A stretch of 64,000 bases of DNA. Source: Christensenellales bacterium (GTDB taxonomy: Bacteria; Bacillota; Clostridia; Christensenellales; CAG-138). Below are positions 36,102 to 42,369 of the stretch, in pieces. The stretch spans positions 68,264 through 132,263 of the forward strand of contig JBGULC010000044.1 of the NCBI GenBank assembly GCA_045114775.1. The letters run 5' to 3'. The position numbers were made by a program, and so were the translations under genes. The first letter of the stretch is position 1. Every line of letters starts with the position of its first letter. The notes beneath the pieces were generated by a model. It did no database searches and was not told where the DNA came from. It worked only from the letters and a program-made list of their open reading frames with translations.

Positions 36102-36140
36102 AGAGACGCCCCGAAAAGGGCGTCTCTGCAAAGCTTTTTT
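36102..36140. terminator. Bidirectional terminator between the lysis cassette and the convergent hydrolase gene
   Basis: AGAGACGCCC-cgaaaa-GGGCGTCTCT with a downstream T-run. Confidence 0.75.
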
Positions 36141-37068
36141 ATAGGTGATCATGCAGCCACGGCAGCACGCGCGCGGCGTAGGCATCCGGATTCGTCATGG
36201 CGGCTTCGGCATGGACCGCGCCGGGCGAGGTCCAAAGATCCTTGTCCTGCGCCGCACAGGCGTCGTAGAGCTTCTGCATCATGGAGTACGGCACGAAGTC
36301 GTCCTTTTCCCCGTGAACGAACAGCGTCGGCGTTACGGAGCGCGTCACCGCCGTGATCGGCGACATATCGCTGTAACGGACCCCCGCAAACAGCCGTGCG
36401 ATCGGCGCGCCAAGTGCTCTTGCGATCGGGAGTATTCCCTTCATCGTGGAGCGGAATTCCTCCTTTGCGGAGGTAAACGAGCAGTCCGAGACGGCGCATT
36501 TCACCTGTTCGGGAAGCGTCTTTCCCGTGGCGCAGAGCACCGTCGCCGCGCCCATGGAAACGCCCATCAGCGCGATCGAAAGGTCTTCGCCGTACCGCTT
36601 GAGAAGCAGCCGGATCCAGTCGATCAGGTCGTCCGATTCCTTGGCGCCGTAGGTCAGATACTTGCCCTCGCTGTCGCCCTGCGCGCGCTGCGAAACGGCA
36701 AGCACCGCATAACCCGCGTCATAGACGAGGTCGAAGGCTTTGCCGAGGTCCCAGTACGGGCGGCTGTGCCAGCCGTGCATCTGCACGACGACCTTCTTCG
36801 TTCCGCCGTTCGGAAAGAACCGCGCCGAGAGCTTCAACCCGTCGCGCGAGGTCATGGTGAGCGTCTCATAGGGCAGACGGTCCATATAGTCCTTCGTGTC
36901 CCAACGCATGCGTACGAGCGGCGAAGGATCGCGCCGCCGATCGGCAAACATCTTCTCCACTGCCTTGCGGCTTGCGCCGAACGCGAACAGGAAAATATAG
37001 AACGCAACGCCGATCACGACGAGCGCAAGGGCGACGAGTACGATGAGTACGATCCAATACCAATGCAT
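36139..37068 (-). CDS. Membrane-anchored alpha/beta hydrolase (paralog 1)
   Basis: N-terminal TM segment, nucleophile elbow GVSMGA. Starts 4 nt after the giant ORF stop. Confidence 0.8.
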   Translation of the reverse strand: MHWYWIVLIVLVALALVVIGVAFYIFLFAFGASRKAVEKMFADRRRDPSPLVRMRWDTKDYMDRLPYETLTMTSRDGLKLSARFFPNGGTKKVVVQMHGWHSRPYWDLGKAFDLVYDAGYAVLAVSQRAQGDSEGKYLTYGAKESDDLIDWIRLLLKRYGEDLSIALMGVSMGAATVLCATGKTLPEQVKCAVSDCSFTSAKEEFRSTMKGILPIARALGAPIARLFAGVRYSDMSPITAVTRSVTPTLFVHGEKDDFVPYSMMQKLYDACAAQDKDLWTSPGAVHAEAAMTNPDAYAARVLPWLHDHL

Positions 37069-37072
37069 ACGC

Positions 37073-40000
37073 TTACCTGTTCATTCTCCAAATGCTCTGC
37101 CGCTCCGCAGGCCGTTTCGCCGGTACGGGCTGCGCTTCTATGCGCCGCGGTCCTCCGCGAAGGAACGCCGGTTCCGGGAGCGAGTCGGGGGGCGGTTCCG
37201 GAGGATTGCCATCCTGCGTGAGGTCGGCAGAATCTGGGGTCGGGTCGGGGGTCTCGTCCTCTTTCGGGGATTCGGCCGGGTCGGTGGTCTCGTCCTCTTT
37301 CGGGGATTCGACCGGGTCGGTGGTCTCGCTTTCTGTCAGAGTTTCGATCTGTTCGGAGATCTCTCCCTCCGTCGGCTGATCGCCGGCACCTCCCTCGTCA
37401 GAGGGAGGTTGAATCGAAGGCACGGTCGAAGTATCTGTCTCGACTACTGCTCCTTCTCCTACCTCTGAGCTCCCCTTGTCAGGGGAGCTGTCAGCTTCTG
37501 CTGACTGAGGGGTAGTTTCGACTGTGACGGTCGTAAACGAAGCCTCCGGGTTCTCCATCTCTGTCGGGGATTCTTCCGGTTCGGGAATCTCTCCCTCCGT
37601 CGGCTGATCGCAGACATCTCCCTCGTCTAAGGGTAGTTGCGTGCTTGCGTCGGATTCCGGGGTCTCTCCCTCCGTCGGCTGGTCGTCGATGACACATCCT
37701 TCGACCGGAGGCTGATCGGTAGCATCCCCATCGGATGATTCGTCGCAGGACGTCGTTTCCGTATTGTCGAGCGTTTCCTGCTCTGCATCGGAATCTTCGG
37801 GCTGCTTCTCCAAGGCCTCTGCAGCCGCGCGTTCCGCCGTCGAATCAAGACGAATGCCGCGCAGCAGGAACGTCGGGATCGGGAACGAGATCGGCACCTC
37901 CTCGATCGGAAACGCTTTGTGTTCCTCTGCCGTCGGCGATTCTGCAGGAGGTTCTTCTTCCGTCAGCGCTTCGACCGGGTCGGGGGGTTCTTCTTCCGTC
38001 AGAGCTTCGATCGGTTCGTGGGACTCTCCTTCCGTCAGGGCTTCGGTCTGTTCTGAGGTCTCTCCCTCCGTCGGCTGTTCGCCGACACCTCCCTCGTCAG
38101 AGGGAGGTTGCGTGCTTGCGTCGGATTCCGGGATTTTTCCCTCCGTCGGCTGTTCGTCGACACCTCCTTCATCAAAGGGAGGTTGAATCGAAGGATCAGT
38201 CGAAGTATCTGTCTCGCGTACTGCTACTTCTCCAACGTCCGAGCGCCCCTTGTCAGGGGAATTGTCAGCTTCTGCTGACTGAGGGGTAGTTCCGTCGGTG
38301 ACGGTCGTAAACGAAGCCTCCGGGTTCTCCCTCTCCGTCGGGGATTCGTCCGGTTCCGGGATCTCTCCCTCCGTCGGCTGATCGCAGATAATACTGTCTT
38401 CAGCAACGGGCTGAACCGCGTCGCTTTCGTCGGCAGCGGGCTGAATTGCGGCGCTTTCTTTGGCAGCAGGCTGAGCCGCGGCGCTCTCGTCAACTATGGT
38501 TTGAACCGCTGTGCTTTCGTCGGCAGCGGGCTGAATTGCGGCGACGCTGTCGGCGAGCGTTTCCGGGACGATTTCCGATTCCGGCATTATTTCTTTGAAC
38601 GAAACTTCCGGTATGGGATCCCTGTCGTGCTTCGCTTCGCCGGCGATTGCGGAGATCGCCGCTGCAGAAGCCGGTATGACAGTCGAGGTAGGCTCGTCAA
38701 AGCCGTTGACGTAATGCAAAAGGGAAACGCCGTCCCGAAGCGTATGCGAAGCCTCGGATCCGTGCGACGAATCGGATCCTTTGAAGGAAGACGGTTCGAC
38801 CGTTTTGCGCAAACCGGATTCCGAAACCGTCCGCACAACAAAGGTTCTTTCCGCGGCAGGCGCCGCGGGTTTTGCCGGTTCATGTTCCGTCTTCGGACGC
38901 GGCATGACCGTTCGCACGACAGCGGGCCGCTCCGAAGATCTCGGTTCGGCGAAACGGGCGCTTTCCGGTTTTGTGGCAACCGGCTCGACAGGCCGTCTGA
39001 ACACGACGGTCTCGTCGCTCGTACGCGCGGCGGGTCTTTCAAATGCGGGTGCTTCCGCCGTCGGTCTGCGGAACTCGCCGGTATTGCCCTTCGGTCTCGG
39101 CGTGACCGGTTCGGCGGGCCGTCTGAACGCTGCGTCTTCCGTCGGACGCGCGGCGGGTCTTTCAAATGCGGCTGCTTCCGCTGTCGGTCTGCGGAATTCG
39201 CCGGTGTTGCCCTTCGGTCTCGGCGTAACAGGTTCGGCGGGACGCCGGAATGTTGCGGTCTCCTCCGCGGATCGCGCCGCGGGTCTTCCCGATTCGGATG
39301 CTTCCGCAGTCGGTCTGCGGAATTCGCCGGTGTTGCCCTTCGGTCTCGGCGTAACAGGTTCAGTACGCCGCGCCGCGGGTCTTGCAAATTCGGATGCTTC
39401 CGCTGTCGGTCTGCGGAATTCGCCGGTATCGCTCTTCGGTCTCGGCGTGACCGGTTCGGCGGGACGTACGTATGCAGCCGTTCCGGGCTTTGCCGTCAGC
39501 ATGATGCGTGTGCCGTCTGCGGTGCGCATTGAATCGGGCTTGGCAGCCGACAGGACGCGTGTGCCGTCGCCGTCGATGCGTACTGATGTATCCTGTGCGG
39601 CAGAACGTGCTGCGGGTCGCGCGCCTTCGCGCCGCATATCCTCGGCAAGGCCTCTTGCGTATAGCTCGCGCCTTGCCTTCGCCTCCTCGTCGGTCAGTTC
39701 GCCGTAGCTTCTGAGCTTGATCGGCTGTCGGTAGCCGAAGCGCTCGGTCGGCGTGTCGTTGAAAAGCGGATCGTCCGGGCGGCGTTTGGTGGCGCGAAGC
39801 GCCTTCTCCATGTCCTCCTCGAACTCGCCCGGCAGCTTGCTTCTGATCTTTCTTTCGAACGCGTAAAGCACGATACACACGATCGCGCAGAACGCCGCGA
39901 CGCCGAGCGTGATCACGGTGATGAGCTTCAGGATCCCGCGATACTTCGCGTCGAGATCCTGCATATAGGGATTGGTGGTAACGACGTAGACCGGATCGGT

Positions 40001-41443
40001 CTTGCGGTCGACCTGATCGCGGAACGGCGTCGTATCGACGGTGACCGTCTGTGAGCTGTGCGTCTGTCCCGCCGGATCCTCTGCGTCGACGCGGAAGCAG
40101 AGCTTGCCGACGCCGTCGATCTGATAGGTCTGCGTAAAATAGGTATCGCCGCGCAAAAGCTCCGGATAGGACACGACCTCATGGAACAGGGTCGTTTCGG
40201 TCAGTACGGCTTTTTTGAGCCTGATGTCGCCGTAATAGCCGATCCGGAACTGGAACGCAACACAGAGCTTGCCGTTGCCGTCGAAGTAAGGCTTCTGCGG
40301 CTCGACGCGCAGCTCGATGCGCACGCCCTCCTGCTCGATATACGGCGTCACGCGGAAGGATTCGGGATCGGTAACGGTAACGGGCTTTAGAAGCGCATCC
40401 GTTCCGGTCGCATGGAAACGCACCGTGCGGATGACGTCCGCGGCGACGCCCGGCTTCACAACATAACGGATCGATTTCGTCTGATTCGCGGGCAGATCGA
40501 AGGGATTGTCGACGAGCGTATTGATCTCATCGTAGACACGGATGTCGGTAACCGTGCGGTTGCCGTTGTTTTTAACGGTGATGATGAACTCGGTCCCCGC
40601 TTCCGTTGCCGGGAACGCCTGTGTGGAGATCGATAGATCCACTGTGACGGAACCGACGCCGATCGCCGTCTCCGCGACCGTCGTGATGTTTCTGCGCCGC
40701 GCAACGTATTCGACCGTCGGGCGGAACGTCATATCCGTCACGCCCATCGTGTAGGTCACGGGCACGACCATCGTCCGTCCCGCGGTAAGCTCGTCGCTTG
40801 TGAGCGGGATCGACTGAAGCCCCTGCTCCGGATCGTAGAGCCGAAGCCCGGTCATATCGAACAGGGTGTCGTTTTTCAGCGTGTATTCGACGGTAAACGA
40901 ATCGCCGACCCGCACGAGCTCGTTCTCGCAGAAGGCGGAAACGGTCAACTCGGGCACGATAAACCGCTCGATCACGATGTTTGCGGAGGTTTCCCTGAAA
41001 TGCGTGATCGTAACGGCTTCGCCGGTCTCGTCGTCGATGAGCGCTTCGCCCGTTTCCTCGTCAAAAGCCGGTTCATGCTCCTCCCAGGAAAGCGTATAGG
41101 TCACGGGAACGTCAAGCTGATCCTCGGCGATGGGGACGTCGGAAAGCGTGAACTCCCGCTTGCCGCCCGCAAGGACCTCGATCTTCTCGTCGAGCGCGCG
41201 TTCGACGTCTTCATAGCCGCCGGAAAGCTTTGCGTTATACAGCGTATAGTCGGATTCGGAATCGTTGAAGATCGTGAAAAGCATGTCCGGCACGGTCCCT
41301 TCGCCCTCAAGTTCGGGCATCGGATCGACCGTGATCGAAAGCGTGATCGGATGCTCGCCCTCGGCAAAGCCGCCCGCGGGGACGATCGATGCCGGGAGCA
41401 GAAGCGCCAATATGCAGATCAGGATGACAATGCGTCGTTTCAT
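37073..41443 (-). CDS. Giant single-pass membrane protein: signal peptide, four Ig-like/CARDB-like modules, TM segment, and an approximately 930-aa disordered repeat-rich tail
   Basis: 1456 aa. Signal peptide MKRRIVILICILALLL, TM segment ILKLITVITLGVAAFCAIVCIVLYAF near residue 500, tail rich in P/E/T/A/R with tandem and segmental repeats. Confidence 0.75.
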   Translation of the reverse strand: MKRRIVILICILALLLPASIVPAGGFAEGEHPITLSITVDPMPELEGEGTVPDMLFTIFNDSESDYTLYNAKLSGGYEDVERALDEKIEVLAGGKREFTLSDVPIAEDQLDVPVTYTLSWEEHEPAFDEETGEALIDDETGEAVTITHFRETSANIVIERFIVPELTVSAFCENELVRVGDSFTVEYTLKNDTLFDMTGLRLYDPEQGLQSIPLTSDELTAGRTMVVPVTYTMGVTDMTFRPTVEYVARRRNITTVAETAIGVGSVTVDLSISTQAFPATEAGTEFIITVKNNGNRTVTDIRVYDEINTLVDNPFDLPANQTKSIRYVVKPGVAADVIRTVRFHATGTDALLKPVTVTDPESFRVTPYIEQEGVRIELRVEPQKPYFDGNGKLCVAFQFRIGYYGDIRLKKAVLTETTLFHEVVSYPELLRGDTYFTQTYQIDGVGKLCFRVDAEDPAGQTHSSQTVTVDTTPFRDQVDRKTDPVYVVTTNPYMQDLDAKYRGILKLITVITLGVAAFCAIVCIVLYAFERKIRSKLPGEFEEDMEKALRATKRRPDDPLFNDTPTERFGYRQPIKLRSYGELTDEEAKARRELYARGLAEDMRREGARPAARSAAQDTSVRIDGDGTRVLSAAKPDSMRTADGTRIMLTAKPGTAAYVRPAEPVTPRPKSDTGEFRRPTAEASEFARPAARRTEPVTPRPKGNTGEFRRPTAEASESGRPAARSAEETATFRRPAEPVTPRPKGNTGEFRRPTAEAAAFERPAARPTEDAAFRRPAEPVTPRPKGNTGEFRRPTAEAPAFERPAARTSDETVVFRRPVEPVATKPESARFAEPRSSERPAVVRTVMPRPKTEHEPAKPAAPAAERTFVVRTVSESGLRKTVEPSSFKGSDSSHGSEASHTLRDGVSLLHYVNGFDEPTSTVIPASAAAISAIAGEAKHDRDPIPEVSFKEIMPESEIVPETLADSVAAIQPAADESTAVQTIVDESAAAQPAAKESAAIQPAADESDAVQPVAEDSIICDQPTEGEIPEPDESPTERENPEASFTTVTDGTTPQSAEADNSPDKGRSDVGEVAVRETDTSTDPSIQPPFDEGGVDEQPTEGKIPESDASTQPPSDEGGVGEQPTEGETSEQTEALTEGESHEPIEALTEEEPPDPVEALTEEEPPAESPTAEEHKAFPIEEVPISFPIPTFLLRGIRLDSTAERAAAEALEKQPEDSDAEQETLDNTETTSCDESSDGDATDQPPVEGCVIDDQPTEGETPESDASTQLPLDEGDVCDQPTEGEIPEPEESPTEMENPEASFTTVTVETTPQSAEADSSPDKGSSEVGEGAVVETDTSTVPSIQPPSDEGGAGDQPTEGEISEQIETLTESETTDPVESPKEDETTDPAESPKEDETPDPTPDSADLTQDGNPPEPPPDSLPEPAFLRGGPRRIEAQPVPAKRPAERQSIWRMNR
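38990..39470. repeat. In-frame tandem repeats within the giant ORF (four units, periods 123/126/96 bp)
   Basis: The core GCTTCCGCNGTCGGTCTGCGGAAYTCGCCGGT recurs at 39051, 39174, 39300 and 39396. It encodes EPVTPRPKxxTGEFRRPTAEA. Confidence 0.9.
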
Positions 41444-41461: not shown

Positions 41462-42115
41462 TTACTCGATTTCCGCGACCGGAAATCCGAAATACTCTCC
41501 GCCTGTGGAGACAGCCGAAACGCGTCCCTCCGTGCGGTCGGAAAGTGCCTTTAAGAATGCGTCCGCTTCGGTCGTGCGGCAGCGGAACGATACCGTGATC
41601 GCCTCGCCGTAATCCGCGCTTTCGATCGCGCCGAAGCGCTCGAACACGCTCCAGGCCGCGTTCCGGTACGGATAGGCGACGCGGACCGAAAACTGCTTGC
41701 ACGGCTCCATGGAAACGAGCCCCGCGGCGTTCACCGCGTCGGCTGCCGAACGCGAATAGGCCCGCACGAGCCCGCCCGCGCCCAGCAGGATGCCGCCGAA
41801 GTAGCGGGTGGAGATCACCAGAAGATCATAGAGATCGCGCTTTTTCAGGACCTCCATCATCGGAAGTCCTGCGGTGCCCTGCGGCTCGCCGTCGTCGCTG
41901 TAACGGGCGGCGCCGCTTCTTAAACGGTAGGCGAAGCAGTTGTGCGTCGCGTCCCAGTGCTGCTTGCGGATGCGCTCAAGGATCGCAAGCGCTTCCGTTT
42001 CGTCCGTCACGGGAAAACAGCGTCCGATGAAGCGCGAACGGTTGATCACATATTCGGTTTCGGAAGCCCGTTCGACGGTGCGGTACGGTTTCATGACGGG
42101 TTCGTCCAAGCGCAT
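41462..42115 (-). CDS. yigZ: IMPACT/YigZ family protein
   Basis: NRSRFIG...HNCFAYRL...DDGEPQGTAG signature. Start at 42115 or 42094. Confidence 0.85.
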   Translation of the reverse strand: MRLDEPVMKPYRTVERASETEYVINRSRFIGRCFPVTDETEALAILERIRKQHWDATHNCFAYRLRSGAARYSDDGEPQGTAGLPMMEVLKKRDLYDLLVISTRYFGGILLGAGGLVRAYSRSAADAVNAAGLVSMEPCKQFSVRVAYPYRNAAWSVFERFGAIESADYGEAITVSFRCRTTEADAFLKALSDRTEGRVSAVSTGGEYFGFPVAEIE

Positions 42116-42156
42116 TGTCCTTTCGCGCGGTCGTTTGCGCATAATTTCTCTGATAC

Positions 42157-42185
42157 AGTATAGCAAAAGAAAACCCGTTTTGCAA
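42157..42185 (-). promoter_or_regulatory. Sigma-A-type promoter of the yigZ / giant ORF / hydrolase operon
   Basis: Minus strand TTGCAA-17 nt-TATACT. Confidence 0.55.
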
Positions 42186-42369
42186 CCGATTCGCCGCATC
42201 GTTCACGGAAAGGATGCAATTTGGACGCATCTTGCCAATGCGGCAGCGACGCGGAGCACAGCGAACCGTTCCGCAGGCGACGCGCTTCCGATCCGCTTTT
42301 CTCCGCGCAGAAGGCGCCGTTTCCGCGCCCATCGAAACGGAAGGCCTCGGGAGGGCGACTGTTTTCCGA

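What the first reader, a model, noticed from the sequence alone, without database searches (positions are those of the whole stretch)
37073..41443. 1456-aa single-pass protein with four extracellular Ig-like modules and a ~930-aa disordered repeat tail
A signal peptide is followed by four ~110-aa beta-sandwich-like modules. Each module has an F.I.N/KN....L pattern reminiscent of CARDB/DUF11. One TM helix lies near residue 500, and everything after it is low-complexity sequence rich in P/E/T/A/R.

By the positive-inside rule (ERKIRSK follows the TM) the tail would be cytoplasmic. That is odd for such a long disordered region.

The gene is sandwiched in an operon between yigZ (19-nt gap) and a membrane-anchored hydrolase (4-nt gap). 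I do not recognise the architecture.
Basis: partly seen in the sequence, partly recalled or inferred. Interest (0 to 1): 0.6.

Follow-up and report, generated by a model that had tools for sequence, protein, structure and literature searches.

The report
Ig-stalk membrane protein, hypervariable cytoplasmic tail
This is a real, uncharacterised membrane protein of uncultured rumen Clostridia: four immunoglobulin-like modules outside the cell, and inside it a very long floppy tail whose length changes freely between species while a few short motifs, including the last 25 residues, stay conserved.

Summary
Window 37073-41443 (minus strand) is one 1456-codon ORF encoding a signal peptide with a conserved AxA-type cleavage site. 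It is followed by four beta-sandwich modules (AlphaFold pLDDT 92 with an alignment), one TM helix (aa 507-529) and a 927-aa low-complexity tail.

The gene is not a fusion artefact. It is single-copy in 26 of 28 genomes of the genus, always as one open frame of 706-1462 aa. A C-terminal motif sits in the last 18 residues of 88 of 127 family members, against 1.7% of internal windows.

The modules are diverged CLIPPER/DUF11-type Ig domains that lack the isopeptide lysine.

The tail is not featureless. It holds a conserved ~100-aa juxtamembrane block, arrays of T-x-x-F-R-R-P, an FtsZ-C-terminal-peptide-like FPIPTFLLRG, an acidic spacer and a basic C-terminal module. The spacer grows by in-frame tandem duplication and by six in-frame copies of a genome-wide REP hairpin element.

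yigZ is the upstream neighbour even in relatives at 23-33% identity whose other neighbours differ.

The most likely role is a transmembrane tether or scaffold that presents cytoplasmic short motifs on a spacer of free length. No partner or function was shown. It is an undescribed family built from known kinds of parts.

The parts
37073..41443 (-). Whole ORF, 1456 aa plus stop (protein P0001)
   Evidence: Single-copy orthologues with uninterrupted frames in 26 of 28 genus genomes.
41363..41443 (-). Signal peptide, aa 1-27 (MKRR, hydrophobic core, GFA|EG). A27 is more than 90% conserved. There is no lipobox.
   Evidence: Helix 3-19 followed by a low-pLDDT linker at 23-28.
40976..41353 (-). Ig-like module 1 (aa 31-156), FTIFNDS motif with invariant N60
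   Evidence: AlphaFold pLDDT above 90. Invariant columns.
40670..40951 (-). Ig-like module 2 (aa 165-258), YTLKNDT motif with invariant N191
40349..40666 (-). Ig-like module 3 (aa 260-365), ITVKNNGN motif with invariant N292 and G294. This is the only stretch with a (sub-threshold) DUF7507/DUF11 hit.
40034..40321 (-). Ig-like module 4 (aa 375-470)
39857..39925 (-). Transmembrane helix, aa 507-529, followed by ERKIRSK
39548..39856 (-). Conserved cytoplasmic juxtamembrane block, aa 530-632. It contains LPGEFEEDME..TKRR..LF.D.PTE.FGY..PIKLR.YGELT.EEA..RR..Y and then DGTRV. It is more conserved than the ectodomain.
   Evidence: Many invariant columns among 12 orthologues at 53-72% identity. Motif positions are collinear.
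38834..39547 (-). Basic, Pro/Arg-rich zone, aa 633-870. It holds six T-x-x-F-R-R-P motifs inside tandem repeats of 96-126 nt.
   Evidence: Motif count is 6, against 0.45 in shuffles.
38414..38833 (-). Middle zone, aa 871-1010. It holds the conserved ..NGFDEP motif (aa 913) and a 30-nt tandem array (AAIQPAADES-type units).
37184..38413 (-). Acidic zone, aa 1011-1420 (119 D+E against 13 K+R). It contains a 263-nt duplication (89% identical, 774 nt apart), 36-nt tandem repeats and six REP copies.
37847..37888 (-). Internal motif SFPIPTFLLRGIRL (aa 1186-1199). It resembles the FtsZ C-terminal peptide and is conserved in the long-tailed subclade.
37076..37183 (-). C-terminal module, aa 1421-1456: PEPAFLRGGPRRIEAQPVPAKRPAERQSIWRMNR. 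It is the hallmark of the family.
   Evidence: The motif is in the last 18 aa of 88 of 127 members, against 1.7% of internal windows.
37358..37413 (+). In-frame REP-like double-hairpin element (read as PPSDEGGAGDQPTEGE)
   Evidence: nhmmer E 7e-9 with an HMM built from 46 copies outside the gene
37465..37517 (-). In-frame REP-like element (read as TTPQSAEADSSPDKGSS)
   Evidence: E 7e-12. 92% identical over 48 nt to G000 C12:111179-111226.
37586..37633 (+). Decayed in-frame REP copy
   Evidence: E 1e-3
38057..38109 (+). In-frame REP copy
   Evidence: E 2e-9
38139..38186 (+). Decayed in-frame REP copy
   Evidence: E 4e-5
38246..38291 (-). Decayed in-frame REP copy
   Evidence: E 2e-5
41462..42115 (-). 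yigZ/IMPACT-family gene, first gene of the operon. The listed ORF runs to 42199, but the promoter-like site at 42185-42157 and the 211-215-aa orthologues suggest an internal start.
36139..37068 (-). Alpha/beta hydrolase (S9/S33-like) with an N-terminal TM, 4 nt after the stop of the big ORF

Best explanation
The ORF is a genuine, fully translated type I (N-out, C-in) membrane protein that belongs to the core genome of a genus of uncultured rumen Clostridia.

Shown here:
- a conserved, probably cleavable signal peptide;
- a stalk of four diverged CLIPPER/DUF11-type Ig modules that lack the isopeptide lysine;
- one TM helix;
- a conserved juxtamembrane block of about 100 aa;
- a tail whose length (about 170 to 930 aa within one genus) and sequence are free to vary;
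- short motifs in that tail that keep their order;
- a basic module of about 25-35 aa at the very C-terminus that is conserved across the whole family.

Inferred: the protein works as a transmembrane tether or scaffold. The Ig stalk projects from the membrane into the wall or medium. The conserved cytoplasmic pieces (juxtamembrane block, T-x-x-F-R-R-P array, C-terminal module) bind cytoplasmic partners. The low-complexity stretches between them are spacers with no sequence constraint beyond staying in frame and disordered. That is why they balloon through slippage, unequal recombination and in-frame REP insertions.

The candidate partners are the products of the co-transcribed genes, and neither was tested. 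One is YigZ, a conserved neighbour across deep divergence. The other is the membrane-anchored hydrolase, whose positive-inside signal also places its catalytic domain in the cytoplasm.
For: Real and translated:
- Orthologues are single-copy in 26 of 28 genus genomes and in 9 of 9 high-quality ones, each with one stop-free frame of 706-1462 aa.
- The chance of 921 stop-free codons at this composition is about 4e-12, and 0 of 20000 shuffles were stop-free.
- All repeat spacings (30, 36, 96, 123, 126, 471, 699, 774 nt) and a 396-nt deletion allele are multiples of 3.
- The C-terminal motif is in the last 18 aa of 88 of 127 members, against 1.7% of internal windows.
- Contigs from independent runs reproduce the sequence.
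- Metatranscriptome contigs match three tail stretches at 100% identity.

Anatomy:
- AlphaFold pLDDT 92.4 with four beta-sandwiches plus a TM helix.
- Foldseek gives only tandem-Ig, adhesin-extender and macroglobulin-type matches.
- Relatives pass the Pfam cut-offs for DUF7507 and DUF11.

Conserved cytoplasmic pieces:
- Invariant columns at aa 530-601.
- Collinear motif map.
- T-x-x-F-R-R-P occurs 6 times, against 0.45 expected.

Operon:
- A terminator follows mscL, a promoter-like site lies before yigZ, the gaps are 18 and 4 nt, and no terminator-like site lies in either intergenic gap.
- yigZ lies just upstream of the match in 21 of 22 genome loci.
- yigZ is also next to, or one gene from, relatives at 23-27% identity whose other neighbours differ: tyrS and DUF2461 in place of mscL and the hydrolase.

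Spacer growth:
- Six REP copies lie in the gene, out of 88 genome-wide.
- The same element family is translated in the dnaX linker of this genome, upstream of a conserved C-terminal domain.
Against: - No partner, ligand or phenotype is known, and every family member is annotated 'hypothetical'.
- Topology is inferred, not measured.
- The yigZ linkage disappears among the weaker class-level relatives, where 15 of 16 are unlinked. It could therefore be inherited gene order within one order rather than functional coupling.
- SNPs from a second strain show the tail under weak constraint: 7 synonymous and 11 non-synonymous, against 5 and 1 in the ectodomain.
- The RNA evidence is four short contigs from one small run, and they lie only on internally repeated stretches.
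- The exact tail length rests on a short-read assembly through repeats. At least one in-frame 396-nt length variant exists.
Confidence: 0.5

Rival explanations
1. Only the first 630 or so residues are functional, as a surface Ig-stalk protein with a short cytoplasmic anchor. The rest is a neutral, junk-like appendage inflated by slippage and REP insertions, including its end.
For: Many family members have tails of only 15-60 aa. Tail length varies five-fold within the genus. Tail substitutions are close to neutral. A third of the acidic zone's repeats are REP-derived. In-frame REPs are generally regarded as tolerated passengers (PMC3733652).
Against: The C-terminal module is conserved at the very end of tails that share nothing else: 69% against 1.7% background. 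Internal motifs keep their order. The frame is kept open over 0.5-2.8 kb in every species.
Confidence: 0.2
2. FtsZ-mimic or divisome-linked scaffold (a special case of the tether model). The FPIPTFLLRG and PEPAFLRG motifs imitate the FtsZ C-terminal peptide and bind FtsA, SepF or EzrA. That would couple an extracellular stalk to the division machinery, or titrate FtsZ partners.
For: The organism's own FtsZ ends in LDIPAFLRK. The tail contains IPTFLLR and PAFLR. 'IP.FL.?[RK]' occurs only 7 times in about 775,000 aa of long ORFs, and two of those are FtsZ and this protein. The internal motif is conserved as FPIP.FL.RG in the four long-tailed relatives, down to 57% ectodomain identity. The layout of variable disordered linker, then peptide, then basic end is that of FtsZ itself (own knowledge).
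Against: The motif is present in only 5 of 124 tailed family members, so it cannot be the family's core function. It was spotted by eye, after the fact. The internal copy is not at a C-terminus. No binding was tested.
Confidence: 0.1
3. Phospho-signalling hub. The repeated [DE]-x-T-x-x-(F/I)-R-x-P units are threonine phospho-acceptor sites for Hanks-type kinases and then dock FHA domains (pT-x-x-hydrophobic).
For: The motif recurs in otherwise different repeat units in several species: TGEFRRP, TAAFRRP, TGRIERP, GTRVIP. The 2.5-Mb genome encodes 9 Hanks kinases and one FHA protein.
Against: This is pattern matching only. Tandem duplication inflates the counts. Half of the close clade lacks the FRRP form. 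There is no phosphoproteomic evidence.
Confidence: 0.05
4. The tail is outside the cell, as a wall-spanning Pro/Thr/Glu-rich region like those of Gram-positive adhesins.
For: Its composition resembles wall-spanning regions (own knowledge).
Against: A conserved signal peptide comes first, then folded Ig modules, then a single TM with +3 on its C-side. With those, the tail cannot be outside unless the Ig modules are inside. There is no LPXTG or other sorting signal. The most conserved block lies directly after the TM.
Confidence: 0.04
5. Assembly or annotation artefact: several genes fused, or a misassembled repeat region.
For: It comes from a short-read MAG. Long internal repeats are present, and the Logan contigs break at them.
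Against: The same architecture is found in dozens of independent assemblies and studies. The contigs of X2 and X4 listed match with no differences. There are no internal gene-like starts with their own conserved domains.
Confidence: 0.02

Closest known systems
CLIPPER / CLIPPER_2 (DUF11, PF01345; DUF7507, PF24346) Ig-like stalk domains of fibrillar adhesins (Protein Sci 2025, PMC12617251)
   Same: The ectodomain is made of tandem beta-sandwich modules with the x-N-x-G/S signature. Module 3 hits both models weakly, and relatives pass the gathering cut-offs. The modules follow a signal peptide in an extracellular position.
   Different: There are only four modules and no adhesive tip domain. There is no sortase or other sorting signal. 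The first strands contain no lysine, so the Lys-Asp-Asn isopeptide is very unlikely. The protein is anchored by a TM helix and continues for 927 aa inside the cell.
ZipA and the FtsK linker: bitopic division proteins with long Pro/Gln-rich cytoplasmic tethers (own knowledge; ZipA was the top PDB sequence hit, E 2e-4, over TM plus linker)
   Same: A membrane helix is followed by a charged segment and a long low-complexity cytoplasmic linker that ends in a conserved binding part.
   Different: The ZipA match is compositional, not homology. ZipA has no ectodomain and ends in a folded domain. Here the end is a peptide of about 25-35 aa, and the N-terminal 500 aa are extracellular Ig modules.
FtsZ C-terminal linker plus C-terminal peptide (own knowledge; this organism's FtsZ ends LDIPAFLRK)
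   Same: A disordered linker of highly variable length is followed by a short conserved peptide. The motifs IPTFLLR and PAFLR match the core of the FtsZ peptide.
   Different: There is no tubulin-like domain. The motif is restricted to one subclade. Binding was not tested.
Intragenic REPs and Rickettsia palindromic elements (Di Nocera et al. 2013, PMC3733652)
   Same: A short hairpin repeat dispersed through the genome (88 copies) is read through in frame as extra residues in a tolerant protein region. The element carries a CCGTC/CAGTC box beside the first hairpin.
   Different: Six copies are concentrated in about 1 kb of one gene, and they were further amplified by a 263-nt segmental duplication. 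The double-hairpin architecture was not checked against the published CGTC families.

Membership tests
CLIPPER_2 / DUF7507 (PF24346) and CLIPPER / DUF11 (PF01345) | Score at or above the Pfam gathering cut-off | tested here: not met
   This protein scores 23.6 bits against 27, and 18.1 against 24.6, at one module only. Relatives P0075, P0083, P0100 and P0140 pass, so the homology is credible but this member is diverged.
CLIPPER_2 / DUF7507 and CLIPPER / DUF11 | Ig-like beta-sandwich (CnaA-like) fold | tested here: inconclusive
   Four confident beta-sandwiches, with Foldseek matches to tandem Ig, adhesin-extender and MG domains. CnaA-like strand topology was not examined specifically.
CLIPPER_2 / DUF7507 and CLIPPER / DUF11 | Intramolecular isopeptide triad: Lys in the first strand, Asp, and Asn in a late strand (PMC12617251; the paper notes that some DUF11 domains lack it) | tested here: not met
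   The first strands read ITLSITV, TVSAFC, VTVDLSISTQA and IELRVEP, with no Lys. The invariant Asn residues (N60, N191, N292) lie early in the modules, about 13 residues before a conserved Asp, which is not the published spacing.
Sortase-anchored Gram-positive adhesin | C-terminal LPXTG-type motif followed by a hydrophobic stretch and a basic tail | tested here: not met
   No LPXTG is present. The only hydrophobic segment after the signal peptide is at aa 507-529, 927 aa before the end.
Lipoprotein | Lipobox [LVI][ASTVI][GAS]C at the end of the signal peptide | tested here: not met
   ILIC has Ile at position -1, and the Cys is not conserved in orthologues.
FtsZ C-terminal-peptide-like motif | Core [DE]-[IL]-P-x-F-[LI]-[RK] | tested here: inconclusive
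   PIPTFLLR and EPAFLRG match the IPxFL / PAFLR core of the organism's own FtsZ peptide DIPAFLRK. The acidic residue before the motif is missing and one extra residue precedes the Arg.
FtsZ C-terminal-peptide-like motif | Binds FtsA, SepF, EzrA or ZipA | not testable with these tools
In-frame REP / RPE-type element | Dispersed multi-copy hairpin family whose copies inside a gene keep the frame open | tested here: met
   There are 46 aligned copies outside the gene. The HMM finds 88 genome-wide hits, and 6 in-gene copies at E of 1e-3 or better, all read without stops. The same family is in frame in the dnaX linker.
Known anti-phage defence proteins (PADLOC) | Match to any PADLOC model | tested here: not met
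   No hit for the protein, yigZ or the hydrolase.

The most novel reading that the evidence does not exclude
The family may be a previously unrecognised class of envelope-to-cytoplasm scaffold in Clostridia. An extracellular Ig stalk would be wired through one helix to a string of cytoplasmic short linear motifs on an evolvable spacer. Its conserved C-terminal module would dock on the co-encoded YigZ/IMPACT protein. In this long-tailed subclade it would also carry an acquired mimic of the FtsZ C-terminal peptide that engages FtsA or SepF. This would give YigZ its first membrane-linked partner in bacteria, and it would be an example of divisome-peptide mimicry by a host protein.
Probability: 0.1. 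Interest if true: 0.75.

Novelty: new variant of a known kind. Interest (0 to 1): 0.45.

Why it matters
Single-pass proteins with a folded ectodomain and a cytoplasmic disordered tail of almost 1000 residues are rare in bacteria. This family offers a natural series: the same ectodomain, juxtamembrane block and C-terminal peptide, separated by spacers of about 15 to 970 residues. That makes it a good system for asking what a bacterial cytoplasmic disordered tether does and how spacer length evolves.

It also gives a testable lead on YigZ/IMPACT, a widespread protein with no established bacterial function. Finally, it shows how slippage and REP insertion create coding sequence in tolerant regions.

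On the other hand, the organism is uncultured and no function is demonstrated. The individual parts (Ig repeats, low-complexity linkers, in-frame REPs) are all known kinds.

Tried and rejected
- Single-sequence AlphaFold gave pLDDT 38 and was unusable. It was replaced by the run with an alignment.
- The search for related loci with the 109-sequence alignment failed because no stretch was conserved enough. It worked with 12 closer sequences.
- Foldseek against the PDB returned only generic tandem-Ig matches with TM-scores of 0.32 or less. It gave no functional analogue.
- The PDB profile search returned ZipA and sodium-channel loops. These are TM-plus-low-complexity artefacts.
- The juxtamembrane block against the PDB matched a designer PPR protein at E 2e-7. 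That value sums nine repeats of 2-5 bits each. It suggests a helical hairpin at most, not homology.
- PADLOC gave no hits.
- NCBIfam gave nothing for the protein beyond a 12.7-bit DUF11-repeat hit.
- DNA of the two closest orthologues (P0003, P0004) could not be fetched, so no dN/dS analysis of the tail was possible. It was replaced by 24 strain SNPs.
- The literature search for YigZ found no established bacterial function.
- The idea that yigZ linkage extends to all class-level relatives was tested and rejected: only 1 of 16 is linked.
- Lipoprotein, sortase-substrate and isopeptide-domain readings were rejected on sequence.
- The earlier-findings index holds no look-alike protein.

Full report
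**Observation.**
The ORF is real and lies on the minus strand of window 37073-41443. It has 1456 codons, an ATG start and a TAA stop. A 19-residue hydropathy scan finds only two hydrophobic segments, aa 1-23 and aa 507-529. The N-terminus (MKRR, a hydrophobic core, then PAGGFA|EGE) looks like a Sec signal peptide. Ala27 is more than 90% conserved in a 109-sequence alignment, there is no lipobox, and the Cys in the core is not conserved.

AlphaFold2 without an alignment failed, with pLDDT 38. With the 109-sequence alignment it gave pLDDT 92.4. The model has four beta-sandwich modules at about aa 31-156, 165-258, 260-365 and 375-470, followed by a helix at 492-536.

The remaining 927 residues are low-complexity: E 14%, P 12.5%, A 12%, T 10%, net charge -103. 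They fall on the disordered side of the charge-hydropathy boundary. The gaps to the neighbours are 18 nt (yigZ stop to start) and 4 nt (stop to hydrolase start).

**Is it one translated gene?**
Several independent lines say yes.
- The protein is single-copy in 26 of 28 species-representative genomes of the genus and in 9 of 9 high-quality ones. It is always one stop-free frame, of 706 to 1462 aa.
- At the tail's base composition, the probability of 921 codons without a stop is about 4e-12, and none of 20000 shuffles was stop-free.
- Every internal repeat spacing is a multiple of three: 30, 36, 96, 123, 126, 471, 699 and 774 nt.
- A short motif (hydrophobic-x-[RKH]-[IVM], here SIWRMNR within GPRRIEAQPVPAKRPAERQSIWRMNR) sits in the last 18 residues of 88 of 127 family members with tails of 90 aa or more. 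It occurs in only 1.7% of internal 18-residue windows of the same tails. Selection can act on the last residues only if ribosomes read the whole tail.
- Contigs of other public runs reproduce stretches of the gene. The listed contigs of X2 and X4 show no differences. A 2017 run from another study (X3) carries a diverged strain.
- In X3, the six listed ectodomain SNPs are all at third codon positions, and five are synonymous. The eighteen listed tail SNPs are 7 synonymous and 11 non-synonymous. The tail is coding but weakly constrained.
- A small bovine metatranscriptome holds four contigs that match the tail at 100% identity. This is weak support, because only internally repeated stretches were assembled and DNA carry-over cannot be excluded.

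**What the ectodomain is.**
In this protein only module 3 touches Pfam, below threshold: DUF7507 23.6 bits against a cut-off of 27, and DUF11 18.1 against 24.6. More distant family members pass the cut-offs for DUF7507 and DUF11.

These families were recently renamed CLIPPER_2 and CLIPPER. They are described as CnaA-like stalk domains of fibrillar adhesins, many with a Lys-Asp-Asn isopeptide bond (PMC12617251). Here the first strands (ITLSITV, TVSAFC, VTVDLSISTQA, IELRVEP) contain no lysine, so the isopeptide is very unlikely. Foldseek against the PDB gives only generic tandem-Ig, adhesin-extender and macroglobulin matches with TM-scores of 0.32 or less. There is no LPXTG.

**What the tail is.**
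The tail is not featureless. Among orthologues at 53-72% ectodomain identity, the 100 or so residues after the TM helix are the best-conserved part of the protein. They read E..IR.KLP.EFE[ED][DE][ML]E...R.TKRR....LF.D.PTE.FGY..PIKL[RK].YGELT.EEA..RR..Y and end in DGTRV at a fixed position.

The following parts come after that block in this protein:
1. A basic Pro/Arg zone (aa 633-870) with six T-x-x-F-R-R-P motifs inside 96-126-nt tandem repeats. Shuffles give 0.45 such motifs. Related species carry the same motif in different repeat units, or use GT[RQ]VIP instead.
2. A middle zone with a conserved ..GF[DE].P motif and a 30-nt tandem array.
3. A strongly acidic zone (aa 1011-1420; 119 D+E against 13 K+R).
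4. The basic C-terminal module.

Inside the acidic zone lies SFPIPTFLLRGIRL (aa 1186-1199), and the C-terminal module begins PEPAFLRG. The organism's own FtsZ ends in LDIPAFLRK. The pattern IP.FL.?[RK] occurs only seven times in about 775,000 residues of long ORFs of this genome, and two of those are FtsZ and this protein. The internal motif is kept as FPIP.FL.RG in the four long-tailed relatives, down to 57% ectodomain identity. It is absent from the rest of the family, with only 5 of 124 members carrying it. I treat it as a lead, not a finding.

**How the tail grows.**
The acidic zone contains a 263-nt segment duplicated 774 nt away at 89% identity, and 36-nt tandem repeats. Two sub-segments of about 50 nt of that unit recur at more than 20 other places in the genome. 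They belong to a double-hairpin REP-like family: a box ACAACCCYTCMGTC, a short hairpin, then a 7-9-bp GCTCCCC...GGGGAGC hairpin.

An HMM built from 46 copies outside the gene finds 88 copies genome-wide. Six of them, at E of 1e-3 or better, lie inside this gene, all read without stops as TTPQSAEADSSPDKGSS or PPSDEGGAGDQPTEGE. Orthologues in other species carry other REP variants in frame, for example DNPPDSLREPPSLAQGGQG and TIVGDVDLDVPP.

In this same genome the element family is also read in frame in the disordered linker of dnaX, upstream of its conserved C-terminal domain. It also occurs four times in the tail of a polytopic membrane protein. In-frame REPs are a described phenomenon (Di Nocera et al. 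2013, PMC3733652), and earlier notes of this scan report the same in related Clostridia.

A 396-nt in-frame deletion joint (37662 to 38059, between repeat copies) is present in contigs of one DNA run and of the RNA run. Length alleles therefore coexist, and the figure of 1456 aa depends on the assembly.

**Family and context.**
A full HMMER scan of 1.84 billion representative proteins finds 184 clusters at E of 1e-3 or better. Most are 500-900 aa, with the same layout of signal peptide, four modules and one TM, and with tails from about 15 to about 970 aa. Named sources are all uncultured rumen or gut Clostridia/Eubacteriales MAGs from cattle, goat, sheep, buffalo and reindeer, and every name is 'hypothetical protein'. 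At class level, 21 of 301 genomes have a relative at E of 1e-10 or better.

On the minus strand, mscL is followed by a strong terminator-like hairpin (42404-42375). A promoter-like site (42185-42157) then precedes yigZ, the big ORF and the hydrolase, and no terminator-like site lies in either intergenic gap.

yigZ lies just upstream of the match in 21 of 22 related genome loci, including two at 28-33% identity. It is adjacent to, or one gene from, relatives at 23-27% identity whose other neighbours are different: tyrS and DUF2461 instead of mscL and the hydrolase. That pattern, a constant pair with changing flanks, hints at functional coupling. However, among the weaker class-level relatives only 1 of 16 is linked. 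The hydrolase is a neighbour only in the close clade. Its N-terminal TM has no positive residues before it and has SRK..K..RRR after it, so its catalytic domain probably also faces the cytoplasm (inference).

**Mechanism.**
Shown:
- the architecture;
- conservation of the ectodomain, the juxtamembrane block, the motif order and the C-terminal module;
- free variation of the spacers;
- the sources of that variation.

Inferred:
- N-out, C-in topology, from the signal peptide and the positive-inside rule;
- a role as a transmembrane tether or scaffold whose cytoplasmic motifs bind partners while the spacers only set reach.

Untested:
- the identity of the partners (YigZ, the hydrolase, FtsZ-peptide binders, or FHA proteins via T-x-x-F sites; the genome has nine Hanks kinases and one FHA protein);
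- what the Ig stalk contacts outside the cell.

I put about 0.9 on the anatomical statements and about 0.35-0.4 on the tether mechanism, for a combined 0.5. The main rival, at 0.2, is that everything beyond about aa 630 is a tolerated appendage. The conserved C-terminus argues against it.

**Comparison and novelty.**
The parts are all known kinds:
- CLIPPER/DUF11-type Ig modules;
- long low-complexity cytoplasmic linkers, as in FtsK, ZipA and FtsZ (own knowledge; the ZipA hit is compositional);
- in-frame REPs.

The combination is not described in Pfam, NCBIfam, PADLOC or the searched literature. That combination is a type I protein with a four-module stalk, a conserved juxtamembrane block, a hypervariable tail of up to 970 aa and a family-wide C-terminal peptide, paired with yigZ. 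I class it as a new variant of a known kind, with interest 0.45. The architecture is unusual, the evolutionary series is neat and it gives a lead on YigZ. But there is no demonstrated function and the host is uncultured.

Noticed in passing
G000 C24:33004-34902 (outside the window): dnaX (clamp-loader tau/gamma, 632 aa) carries two copies of the same REP family in frame in its disordered linker. They read as ..RSPSATAPLAKGSQG.. and ..LQSPSVTAHLAQGGQ... A conserved C-terminal domain lies downstream, so the elements must be translated there.
   Followed up: partly
G000 C10:58335-59678 (outside the window): A 447-aa polytopic membrane protein ends in an acidic tail of about 120 aa that contains four REP copies in frame.
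   Followed up: no
G000 C12:122143-123279 (outside the window): A cluster of at least six REP copies lies within 1.1 kb. Contig C12 holds 23 of the 88 genome-wide copies, whereas the 197-kb contig with the window holds none outside the big ORF.
   Followed up: no
window 37662-38059: A 396-nt (132-codon) in-frame deletion joint between repeat copies is seen in contigs of one DNA run (X4) and of the metatranscriptome run (X14). It is a tail-length allele. A 90-nt skip in the 30-nt array (38411 to 38502) is seen in X3.
   Followed up: partly
window 42094-42199: The listed 245-aa yigZ ORF probably starts at an internal Met (aa 29 or 36). A promoter-like site (42185-42157) lies inside the long form, and orthologues are called at 211-215 aa.
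   Followed up: partly
window 36139-37068: The downstream alpha/beta hydrolase has no positive residue before its N-terminal TM and a cluster (SRK..K..RRR) after it. This suggests N-out, C-in, meaning a cytoplasm-facing, membrane-tethered S9/S33-like hydrolase next to a Pro-rich cytoplasmic tail.
   Followed up: no
G000 C13:14392-28200 (outside the window): A 1626-aa ORF with an FHA domain lies within about 14 kb of three of the genome's nine Hanks-type kinase genes. That is an unusually rich Ser/Thr-kinase complement for a 2.5-Mb genome.
   Followed up: no
window 39600-39700 (aa 580-610): The segment YGELTDEEAKARRELYARGLAEDMRREGARP aligns to every repeat of a designer pentatricopeptide protein. 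The E-value of 2e-7 comes from summing nine weak repeats. It probably forms a helical hairpin and is not a PPR homologue.
   Followed up: yes
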